From: Octopus vulgaris
Taxonomy: Eukaryota
Direction: 5' to 3'
Assembly: GCA_951406725.2 (NCBI GenBank)
Contig: OX597834.1
Span: 38,626,001 to 38,690,000 of the forward strand
Length of the DNA: 64,000 nucleotides
Positions 1,776 to 54,249 of this stretch are shown here, piece by piece. Position 1 is the first letter of the stretch, and each line of letters opens with the position of its first letter. The position numbers and the translations under genes were made by a program. Under the pieces are notes generated by a model. The model did no database searches, was not told the origin of the DNA, and saw only the letters and a list, made by a program, of their open reading frames with translations.

Positions 1776-1778
<3 letters not shown>

Positions 1779-1991
1779 CTGGAACTCTTCTTTTCACTAC
1801 ATAACGAAGACATGACACGATGTAGGTAAAGAAATTTGAGAAATTTGAAAAGTATACACGAAACCGGTTATTTCTCCAAAAACTATGTTACTATACACAA
1901 AATTTTATAACATTTTTCTAACATAACGACTTAAATATATTCTTTAACCTTATAACACATGCCTTCTGTAGTTTTTTCACTCTTTTCTATT
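1776..1991 (+). mobile_element. (TA)n-embedded non-coding element carrying a hammerhead motif (Penelope pLTR/retrozyme-like)
   Basis: Flanked by (TA)n on both sides; contains the HHR at 1838-1876. Confidence 0.55.
1838..1876 (+). ncRNA. Minimal type I hammerhead ribozyme, U3-A8 core variant
   Basis: GAGAAAT-TTGAAAA-GT(ATAC)AC-GAAA-CCGG-TT-ATTTCTC: 7-bp stem I, 2-bp stem II, palindromic stem III (ACCGGT), GUU site. Confidence 0.7.
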
Positions 1992-2570
1992 ATATATATA
2001 TATATATATATATGTATGAATGAATGTTTGTATGTGTATGTGAGTGTGTATGTATGTATGTATGTATGTAGTTAAGTAGGTGCCTATATATATGTACATA
2101 TTTAGGCATGTATGTGGAAAAAAGGCGTGTCAGAGAGTTTTGGTGTAAAAGTGAAAGGAAATATGTAAGAGGAAAGAGACAGAAATGGAAAACAGAGAGA
2201 AAGAAGGAAAGAGAGAGAGAGAGAGGGGGGAAGTGAGAGAAAGAGGTTGGAGTAAAGGGAAAAGAGTATTCAGATATGCTGAGGGCGAAAGAGACATGCG
2301 GAATGAAATCCATACCGTATAATATGTCTTATGTGGAATTCATCGTTCCAACAACGGGCACAAGGTCTGAAGGTTTCGTGTGTTGGGGGTGGGTCGTCGA
2401 TTAGGTCGCCCGCTGTGCTCCACTCGAACTTATTTCATCGACCTTGAAAGGTTGAGAGACATAGTAGACTTTGGGCGGAATTATTTGGAATTAGAACGCG
2501 AAGATGGGAGGAGGAGGGGGTAAGAATGGTAGAATGGGATGAATTGAGTGATGGAGACAGAGGCACATGT

Positions 2571-53555: not shown

Positions 53556-53648
<93 letters not shown>

Positions 53649-53652
<4 letters not shown>

Positions 53653-53883
53653 AAATAAGTCAAAATAGAAAATGCTAAAATAATTTTATATAGAACATTT
53701 CAGTACCGGTTTCAGTCATTTTGAGACCTTTTCAACTGTAACGATTAAATAATTAAGTTTAGAAAAATTAAAAGAAAAGTTTTTTTAAAGGAATATTTGT
53801 ATAGTGTTCAAATATAAGTGGCATTTTCCTTGTTTCTGCCTTTCTCTGTCTCTCTTGTTTACACTTGTGTGTTCGAGGTCGTT
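53649..53883 (-). mobile_element. (TA)n-embedded hammerhead-bearing element
   Basis: TA repeats on both sides; the same terminus (gaaaaaa.aagtcaaaatagaa) occurs as a stub at 29441-29464. Confidence 0.6.
53696..53743 (-). ncRNA. Minimal type I hammerhead ribozyme, U3-A8 core variant
   Basis: cgttaCAG-TTGAAAA-GGTC(TCAAAAT)GACT-GAAA-CCGG-TA-CTGaaatg; GUA site. Confidence 0.65.
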
Positions 53884-54249
53884 ATATATATAATACACGT
53901 CGTTGATCGGATAATTACATTTACTGTTTCTCGAAAGCCACATTCAAAGTATTATGTATATAATTTACTCCTCCTGTATGTGTGTATTTTATAAGAGAAG
54001 GATATGTAATAACTGAAGTAGAAACAAGATCAATTTCATACATGACCTTCTGTTTGTTTATTATATGACAACAGTAAATTAGTTGTATGTTTTATTTTAT
54101 TTAGTAATACAGTAACGGCAATTATACAACACATACATACAACTGCTTACAATAATAGAGATTACTGTATAATTTCTCCTATGTTCATAATTTTTGGTTT
54201 ACGATATTGAAAAAAATATGCCAGCAAAGAAAAGATGTAAGCTCTCCAG

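What the first reader, a model, noticed from the sequence alone, without database searches (positions are those of the whole stretch)
53696..53743. Second U3-A8 hammerhead with different stems but the same core and ACCGGU
Seen on the minus strand: CAG-UUGAAAA-GGUC/GACU-GAAA-CCGG-UA-CUG. Stems I and II share no sequence with the 1838 copy, yet the core and stem III are identical, which is the pattern expected from structural selection. The downstream AT-rich tails are loosely alike and both end in (TA)n.
Basis: partly seen in the sequence, partly recalled or inferred. Interest (0 to 1): 0.7.

Follow-up and report, generated by a model that had tools for sequence, protein, structure and literature searches.

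The report
Hammerhead ribozyme of a Penelope retrotransposon
This is the broken-off tail of a very common Penelope-type jumping gene carrying an already described variant of a self-cutting RNA motif; elsewhere in the genome the splicing RNA U6 is joined exactly at the predicted cut site of this and related motifs, which likely records that these minimal ribozymes do cut in living cells.

Summary
The motif is real: a minimal type I hammerhead (U3-A8 core, palindromic ACCGGU helix III) on the minus strand, predicted cut 53704/53703. It is not a lone host element. It lies in the 235-nt 3' end of a 5'-truncated Penelope-like retrotransposon (RT, Cys linker, GIY-YIG; Neptune/Nematis type) inserted in (TA)n, with about 2,000 copies. 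The 1838 motif belongs to a second, homologous family (56% protein identity). The core pattern occurs 7,902 times against 25 for the control, and stem I covaries across families. U3-A8 and palindromic helix III in Penelope elements are in print (PMC4209133), so this is a new member of a known kind. The best extra evidence is indirect. In an unbiased U6 survey, 6 of 6 chimeras whose partner I could assign to a hammerhead family join U6 (five U) at the predicted cut, as RtcB ligation to a 5'-OH end would give. About 99% of copies run through the uncut site and end 55-100 nt beyond it, so cutting is probably occasional and not needed for copying. The scan noted such U6 joins earlier on other DNA of this genome. 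Cleavage was not tested at the bench.

The parts
53649..53883 (-). 5'-truncated 3' end (pseudo-LTR part) of a Penelope-like element, here called family A
   Evidence: 43 matches at 95-100% identity among 40 scored of 2,221 candidates; longer copies run upstream into a GIY-YIG endonuclease and RT
53696..53743 (-). Minimal type I hammerhead motif, whole
   Evidence: sequence, descriptor and shuffles, fold
53736..53743 (-). Stem I 5' arm CGUU-A-CAG
   Evidence: pairs covary across families
53729..53735 (-). Core strand UUGAAAA (U3-A8 in place of C3-G8)
   Evidence: variant described in PMC4209133
53714..53728 (-). Helix II GGUC/GACU with 7-nt loop; the 10.1-11.1 pair is G.U in this copy
   Evidence: 24 of 94 family A contexts have GACU, 63 have GACC
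53705..53713 (-). GAAA core strand plus palindromic helix III ACCGGU (53710-53705); cannot close as a hairpin, predicted to pair with a second copy
   Evidence: self-duplex -8.3 kcal/mol; dimer model from PMC4209133
53703..53704 (-). Predicted cleavage site GUA/CUG
   Evidence: hammerhead numbering; U6 joined at this family position in L215 and L227
53641..53703 (-). Tail downstream of the cut, ending in CAUAUAUAU, the shorter of the family's two 3' ends
   Evidence: 59 of 94 family A tails end here, 30 about 34 nt further on
53563..53648 (.). (TA)n target microsatellite; a short (TA)n also abuts the 5' end at about 53884-53894
   Evidence: same flanks in other copies
1776..1993 (+). 5'-truncated 3' end of a second Penelope-like family (family D), in (TA)n
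   Evidence: 43 matches among 40 scored of 1,719 candidates; GIY-YIG and RT upstream in longer copies
1838..1876 (+). Family D hammerhead; helix II of only 2 pairs; predicted cut 1869/1870
   Evidence: U6 joined at this family position in L265

Best explanation
The stretch is the hammerhead-bearing 3' end of a truncated Penelope-like retrotransposon copy inserted in a (TA)n microsatellite, and its motif is a minimal U3-A8 hammerhead that likely cuts only as a pair and only in a minority of transcripts. SHOWN: full-length family A elements carry ORF1, then an overlapping RT / CX4CXXC linker / GIY-YIG frame, a microsatellite-rich 3' UTR, the hammerhead and a tail. In tandem insertions the same segment also sits just upstream of ORF1, so one transcript can hold two motifs about 4.4 kb apart. 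Copies end at two UA-rich sites 55-64 and 92-100 nt past the predicted cut. INFERRED: (1) the endonuclease nicks (TA)n and reverse transcription starts internally at one of the two UA tracts of an uncut read-through RNA, probably helped by pairing with the target; early stop gives short copies like this one. (2) Two motifs pair through ACCGGU, possibly helped by the element's protein, and cut after GUA. The downstream piece has a 5'-OH end about 125 nt before the ORF1 start, and an RtcB-type ligase sometimes joins it to U6. (3) This particular copy is a passive fossil that could cut only if transcribed and paired with another copy.
For: Element identity: GIY-YIG 26.2 bits, above cutoff; RVT_1 34.2 bits, above cutoff; GLKF, DKG, YLDD, CX4CXXC read in the translation. 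Motif abundance: 7,902 against 25. Link to EN/RT: 16 of 78 core-picked contexts have same-strand EN/RT within 1.5 kb upstream, 1 of 78 downstream. Covariation; with six distinct stem I types 17 of 18 pairs form, 1 of 720 permutations. Uncut template: 1,966 copies hold the intact cut junction against 24 non-collinear starts at the cut; two 3' ends, as for the anole element in PMC11167929. Cutting in vivo: of 148 U6 3'-end matches 100 were listed and 20 non-SINE, non-U6 partners were fetched. Five of these (L259, L260, L265, L269, L273) plus L227 from the same list could be assigned to U3-A8 families, and 6 of 6 join at the predicted cut. A seventh (L215) came from the cut-site query. All seven have exactly five T, the length of mature U6 with a 2',3'-cyclic phosphate (PMC6789731).
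Against: No cleavage assay. Minimal metazoan Penelope hammerheads showed none (monomer) or low (dimer) activity in vitro (PMC4209133), and no RNA-seq reads began or ended at the cut in the anole element (PMC11167929). The two-strand minimum-energy fold of this motif pairs the palindrome but is not a clean double hammerhead. Most listed U6 partners look by eye like SINE 5' ends with 3 to 9 or more T, so U6 joins also arise at ends that no hammerhead made; a template switch could replace ligation. Plain 5' ends are only modestly enriched at the cut (22 against 9 events at one control site). Helix II is weak in some families: 1-2 pairs in C/D, U.U at the first pair in K. Family K showed no EN/RT match within 1.5 kb upstream. 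L265 has a 2-nt ambiguity, and the L273 parent is a single degenerate copy.
Confidence: 0.72

Rival explanations
1. Same element, but the motif is a conserved protein-binding or pausing structure, or a transcription start, and does not cut; U6 joins and 5' ends fall there because reverse transcriptase stalls or switches template at the three-way junction.
For: About 99% of copies pass through the site uncut. Activity of such motifs in vitro is low. Cleavage was not needed for insertion by the anole element. One insertion (L224/L225) lacks the junction from U3 to the cut, as a polymerase jump would give.
Against: U6 joins fall on the scissile bond in 4 sequence-distinct families, each with exactly five T. 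All catalytic positions and the compensated 3-8 pair are kept. A stall would be expected at the base of stem I, not at N17.
Confidence: 0.17
2. The hammerhead cuts efficiently and the RNA is re-ligated into a circle or multimer, which is the normal template; copies look uncut because the bond was remade.
For: U6 chimeras imply that ligatable ends exist at the cut. The model was proposed in PMC4209133. L223 has one extra base exactly at the cut.
Against: An uncut linear read-through RNA explains the same copies more simply, and was the dominant substrate in vitro for the anole element. I have no circular-RNA evidence.
Confidence: 0.08
3. A host-exapted ribozyme under selection at this locus, like the amniote HH9/HH10 motifs.
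For: The best Rfam hit is Hammerhead_HH9, below threshold.
Against: The copy is 97-98% identical to many dispersed copies over its whole 234 nt, lies between (TA)n, and carries the G.U variant at 10.1-11.1 that 24 of 94 copies share.
Confidence: 0.02
4. Chance match in AT-rich DNA.
For: The fold is no more stable than shuffles.
Against: 0 of 200 shuffles; 7,902 against 25 genome-wide; covariation.
Confidence: 0.01

Closest known systems
Minimal type I hammerheads of metazoan Penelope-like elements (Cervera and de la Pena 2014, PMC4209133; parts 1-2 of 4 read, supplements not read)
   Same: Type I topology in the pseudo-LTR; U3-A8 core (reported in Schistosoma mansoni Cercyon, about 1,300 hits); small palindromic helix III (reported in Drosophila, rotifer, shrimp and mosquito elements); mostly solo copies from truncated elements; many sequence families with covariation.
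   Different: Helix II is short here (4 pairs in A, 1-2 in C/D, against 7-8 in the schistosome motifs) and families A-D have no extra base between 9 and 10.1. U3-A8 is far commoner than C3-G8 in front of GAAACCGGU (7,902 against 179). The parts I read give no in vivo footprint of cutting.
Neptune/Nematis-type EN+ Penelope-like elements (Craig et al. 2021, PMC8557442; passages read)
   Same: RT followed by a CX2-5CXXC linker and C-terminal GIY-YIG; GxKF and DKG motifs; (TA)n targets; partial tandems, inverted truncated copies, optional 30-40 bp tail; hammerhead near the 3' end; ORF1 separable by a frameshift (figure legend).
   Different: Neptune versus Nematis was not resolved (no reference sequences in hand). 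No stable structure is predicted after the slippery site in family A (-1.8 kcal/mol; pseudoknots not modelled).
Poseidon element of Anolis carolinensis (Frangieh et al. 2024, PMC11167929; parts 1-2 of 4 read)
   Same: Two internal reverse-transcription start sites that define the optional tail; uncut RNA as template; AT-rich target.
   Different: There the core is C3-G8, the cut lies inside the ORF and the start sites are AC-rich and not homologous to the target. Here the cut is about 125 nt before ORF1 and both ends are UA tracts that match the (TA)n target.
U6/LINE-1 chimeric pseudogenes made by RtcB ligation (Moldovan et al. 2019, PMC6789731; abstract, start of introduction and first part of discussion read)
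   Same: U6 3' end joined to a 5'-shortened retroelement RNA and retrotransposed; needs a cyclic phosphate on U6 and a 5'-OH on the partner.
   Different: In LINE-1 the 5'-OH comes from an unknown nuclease at variable sites; here the join is at one fixed base, the predicted ribozyme cut.
Animal non-LTR retrozymes (Li, Clavereau and Pollet, bioRxiv 10.64898/2026.07.22.740005, part 1 of 5 read; PMC7229834, search listing only)
   Same: Type I hammerhead; a 359/360-nt tandem repeat in this genome has the same ACCGGU helix III with a C3-G8 core.
   Different: The finding is the end of a protein-coding element, not a short non-coding tandem unit.

Membership tests
Type I hammerhead ribozyme | Core YUGANRA ... 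GAAA ... UH with a Watson-Crick 3-8 pair | tested here: met
   UUGAAAA, GAAA, UA; U3-A8
Type I hammerhead ribozyme | Helices I and II supported by covariation | tested here: met
   Stem I 51 of 60 against 28.1; stem II 38 of 60 against 27.3; clusters are related, so not a true probability
Type I hammerhead ribozyme | Helix III stable in the monomer | tested here: not met
   ACCGGU cannot close a hairpin beyond one pair; self-duplex only. Expected for the dimer-type subclass.
Type I hammerhead ribozyme | Score above an Rfam hammerhead gathering threshold | tested here: not met
   HH9 17.8 bits against 52
Type I hammerhead ribozyme | Self-cleavage after N17 giving cyclic phosphate and 5'-OH | not testable with these tools
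   Indirect only: U6 joins at the predicted bond
Minimal Penelope-element hammerhead (PMC4209133) | Located in the pseudo-LTR of a Penelope-like element | tested here: met
   Same segment upstream of ORF1 and downstream of RT-EN in L091, L093, L099, L104
Minimal Penelope-element hammerhead (PMC4209133) | Palindromic helix III / loop 3 | tested here: met
   ACCGGU
Minimal Penelope-element hammerhead (PMC4209133) | G10.1-C11.1 pair and an extra base between 9 and 10.1 | tested here: inconclusive
   G-C in 63 of 94 family A contexts but G.U in this copy; no extra base in the 4-pair reading, though GGUC can also be read as G plus a 3-pair stem
EN+ Penelope-like element, Neptune/Nematis type | RT followed by C-terminal GIY-YIG endonuclease | tested here: met
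   RVT_1 and GIY-YIG in one 784-codon frame; EN above cutoff in L005
EN+ Penelope-like element, Neptune/Nematis type | CX2-5CXXC linker, GxKF and DKG motifs | tested here: met
   Read in the translation; motif definitions from PMC8557442
EN+ Penelope-like element, Neptune/Nematis type | Pseudo-LTR tandems, inverted truncated copies, optional 30-40 bp tail, (TA)n targets | tested here: met
EN+ Penelope-like element, Neptune/Nematis type | RT phylogeny placing it in Neptune or in Nematis | not tested
   No reference sequences were fetched
EN+ Penelope-like element, Neptune/Nematis type | Spliceosomal intron in the pseudo-LTR (some Penelope elements) | tested here: inconclusive
   Splice-like signals seen by eye; no spliced genomic copy and no splice joint in contigs
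Non-LTR retrozyme | Short non-coding tandem monomers | tested here: not met
   Longer copies continue into EN and RT

The most novel reading that the evidence does not exclude
The minimal U3-A8 hammerheads of these Neptune/Nematis-type elements, including ones with only 1-2 pairs in helix II, really cut in the germline. The cut sets a fixed 5'-OH end just ahead of ORF1, an RtcB-type ligase joins it to U6 (and perhaps to the element's own upstream cut end), and the U6 pseudogene joins in the genome are a readable fossil record of ribozyme cleavage sites. That record could map cut sites in any animal genome and bear on whether Penelope hammerheads work in vivo.
Probability: 0.55. Interest if true: 0.62.

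Novelty: new member of a known kind. Interest (0 to 1): 0.36.

Why it matters
The motif itself is ordinary: U3-A8 minimal hammerheads in Penelope elements were described in 2014. What they do is still open. They barely cut in vitro, and cut ends were not seen in RNA-seq of the one element studied biochemically. The U6 joins at the exact predicted bond in four sequence-distinct families give a genome-encoded sign that cutting happens in vivo, while the copy structure shows that most templates are uncut. This makes the question testable with a short RNA. Searches that require CUGANGA miss nearly all of these motifs in this genome (179 against 7,902 for the N7 = A form alone). I found no paper holding 'Penelope', 'hammerhead', 'U6 snRNA' and 'chimera' together, and 'U3-A8' with hammerhead and cleavage only in PMC4209133. 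The library omits most subscription journals, and unread supplements of PMC4209133 and PMC8557442 may list these families.

Tried and rejected
Whole-window Rfam scan: swamped by microsatellite matches to miRNA models, no hammerhead among the 150 listed of 475. RNA evidence: no RNA holder listed on record; runs guessed to be RNA hold both families as contigs, which cannot show ends, strand or level, so I use them neither for nor against. Intron idea: families A/B have a pyrimidine tract plus YAG directly before U3, and families C/D have a donor-like site before and an acceptor-like site after the motif. No spliced genomic copy of family D was found (0 matches), the one family A hit with a changed upstream was a 2-base deletion by eye, and no GT..AG joint appeared in contigs; left unsupported. 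Folding energy as evidence: z-scores near zero. Two-strand folding did not give a clean double hammerhead. PDB sequence search of the RT-EN frame: 0 hits. No RT/EN remnant in the window itself (tblastn). Enrichment of plain 5' ends at the cut: 24 of 41 matches non-collinear at the cut against 12 of 15 at one control site 7 nt upstream, 22 against 9 after merging paired hits by eye; preliminary counts gave p 0.008 (22 v 7) and 0.064 (17 v 7), the final counts were not tested, and the genome-wide count of the cut anchor was not obtained, so I treat this as weak. Dropped rows: L195 and L202 before the covariation count (degenerate family D copies caught by an upstream look-alike). Of the 20 fetched U6 partners 15 could not be assigned to a hammerhead family; three (L262, L268, L274) look like Penelope tails of unknown families. 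About 79 listed U6 matches were judged by eye (mostly SINE-like, some U6 arrays or U6-U6) and not fetched, and 48 were not listed. A look-up of earlier findings by sequence gave nothing.

Full report
Observation. The motif is present as written. The core is UUGAAAA ... GAAA ... UA, helix II is GGUC/GACU, and helix III is the palindrome ACCGGU. A relaxed type I descriptor finds only this motif and the one at 1845 in the window; 0 of 200 shuffles give a hit with a palindromic 4-nt insert. The fold is no more stable than shuffles (z -0.78) and Rfam gives only a sub-threshold HH9 match.

What it belongs to. The window is G000:C21:38626001-38690000 of a 2.8-Gb genome. The species is not given; size and microsatellite content suggest a cephalopod (my inference, untested). 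The 234 nt from 53883 to 53650 are a dispersed repeat: 2,221 candidates, 40 scored, 95-100% identity. Copies share 3' ends in (TA)n, have variable 5' ends, and some carry inverted pieces. Longer copies run upstream through a CTT/CAT-rich UTR into a GIY-YIG endonuclease with a CX4CXXC linker. A protein search gave 150 scored of 20,069 candidates. Twenty loci with long frames show RT and EN in one frame (784 codons in 15 of them) and, where intact, an upstream ORF1. Fifteen of these frames are 98.0-100% identical in DNA (median 99.2%), so the family spread recently. In L091, L093, L099 and L104 the hammerhead segment lies both before ORF1 and after EN, about 4.4 kb apart; inverted truncated copies flank several others. 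This is the layout of EN+ Penelope-like elements of the Neptune/Nematis type (PMC8557442, passages). The 1776-1993 segment is the end of a second family whose EN is 50% and RT region 56% identical to family A. The shared core is therefore inherited, and the weak likeness of the tails (54 of 5,000 shuffles) fits common descent.

Is the structure selected? The pattern TTGAAAA-N6-20-GAAACCGGTH occurs 7,902 times against 25 for the reversed control. The N7 = C/G/U form occurs 3,881 times against 41, partly at the same loci, and the C3-G8 form 179 times against 31, many of them a 359/360-nt tandem repeat. Stem I was not part of these patterns, so its pairing is a fair test. In 73 contexts (L195 and L202 dropped) grouped into 20 clusters, 51 of 60 inner pairs form against 28.1 in permutations (0 of 20,000), with G-C/U-A, A-U/U-A/C-G and C-G/A-U/U-A swaps. 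Helix II forms 38 of 60 against 27.3 (6 of 20,000). Clusters are related, so these are not probabilities; six distinct stem I types give 17 of 18 pairs, 1 of 720 permutations. Sixteen of 78 contexts have same-strand EN/RT within 1.5 kb upstream against 1 of 78 downstream. Families A/B and C/D account for these, and family K has none.

How copies are made. Of 94 family A tails, 59 end about 56-67 nt past the predicted cut (at CAUAUAUAU), 30 end at about 95-101 (at UUAUACAUAU), 1 ends elsewhere and 4 run on into ORF1 (the positions include bases shared with the target). The window copy has the short end. Two ends about 34 nt apart match the optional tail and the two internal start sites of the anole Poseidon element (PMC11167929). 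Since 1,966 copies hold the intact cut junction, the template is normally uncut or re-joined. Both ends here are UA tracts matching the (TA)n target, so I infer priming helped by pairing; the anole start sites were not homologous to the target.

Does it cut? I looked for copies that begin at the predicted bond. At the cut 24 of 41 matches were non-collinear, against 12 of 15 at a control site 7 nt upstream, or 22 against 9 after merging paired hits; the anchors matched 60 and 67 of 82 held copies. This is a weak enrichment. Two of the cut-site loci begin with the 3' part of U6 snRNA (Rfam U6 above the gathering score). I then surveyed U6 3' ends without reference to the ribozyme: 148 matches, 100 listed, 20 non-SINE partners fetched. 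Six partners in that list could be assigned to U3-A8 families: L227 (A), L259 and L260 (A/B-like), L265 (D, the family of the 1838 motif), L269 (K) and L273 (a family seen in L015). All 6 join at the predicted cut, and no fetched partner matched these elements at another position. With L215, all seven have exactly five T. Mature U6 ends in five U with a cyclic phosphate, and RtcB joins that end to a 5'-OH (PMC6789731), which is the end a hammerhead leaves (established knowledge). Limits: L265 is ambiguous by 2 nt, the L273 parent is one degenerate copy, most listed U6 partners look like SINE 5' ends with variable T runs (by eye), and a template switch could make the same join. Either route still needs an RNA whose 5' end lies at the scissile bond.

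Mechanism. Shown: element anatomy, copy ends, covariation, U6 joins. Inferred: pairing of two motifs through ACCGGU (self-duplex -8.3 kcal/mol, but no clean double hammerhead in the two-strand fold), possibly protein-assisted as in the anole element; occasional cutting that frees unit-length RNA with a 5'-OH about 125 nt before ORF1; ligation to U6. This copy is most likely a passive fossil. I put 0.95 on the identity of the element and 0.72 on the whole account, including occasional cutting in vivo.

Comparison and verdict. U3-A8 cores, palindromic helix III, the dimer model and solo copies from truncated elements are all in PMC4209133. The finding is a new member of that kind. The U6 footprint is not in the papers my searches returned, but the scan reported it earlier on other DNA of this genome (e1-8797406, e1-8799442); my calls extend it to both families in this window. 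Supplements of the cited papers were not read and may list these families. Interest 0.36.

Noticed in passing
L093:3165-3207 and L087:4337-4370 (families A and D): ORF1 and the RT-EN frame overlap at the same slippery heptamer U UUU UUA, with RT-EN in the -1 frame. 16 of 18 family A copies have six T and 2 have seven, which fuses the frames. Likely a programmed -1 frameshift; no stable downstream hairpin in family A. A frameshifted ORF1 is mentioned for some Penelope types in PMC8557442.
   Followed up: partly
window 53736-53780 (minus) and families A/B: A pyrimidine-rich tract ending in YAG abuts U3 of the core; the AG is kept while the third stem I pair varies. It resembles the intron end at helix I in Drosophila virilis Penelope. 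No splicing evidence found.
   Followed up: partly
window 1827-1970 (plus), families C/D: Donor-like AG/GUAAAG just before the hammerhead and branch-point/acceptor-like signals after it, which would put the motif inside a 144-nt intron. No spliced copy or joint found.
   Followed up: partly
L144-L170: 359/360-nt tandem, partly inverted repeats with a canonical C3-G8 hammerhead and the same ACCGGU helix III (retrozyme-like); L203 is a U3-A8 relative.
   Followed up: no
L191-L210 and related (family K): Abundant U3-A8 family with U.U at the first helix II pair, two 3' ends in (TA)n, and no EN/RT match within 1.5 kb upstream in the copies held; its autonomous partner is unknown.
   Followed up: partly
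one search list: Most listed U6 3' ends are followed within a few bases by SINE-like 5' ends, and two by another U6 5' end; judged by eye.
   Followed up: no
L262, L268, L274: U6 (five T) joined to AT-rich tails of unassigned families (L262 and L268 end in (TA)n; L262 is an inverted pair); these may mark cut sites of further hammerhead families.
   Followed up: no
L224/L225: An inverted pair in which both arms lack the hammerhead from U4 to the cut, joining the two arms of stem I; the deletion must predate or accompany insertion.
   Followed up: no
L231/L232 and L211: A tRNA-like SINE fragment and an ORF1 fragment are each joined at the family A cut site.
   Followed up: no
L243/L244, L250/L251: Fold-back insertions that turn at the ACCGGT palindrome.
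   Followed up: no
L082:4933 (minus): Another hammerhead-like string with UUGAUGA core and a non-palindromic helix III, possibly a decayed copy of a further family.
   Followed up: no
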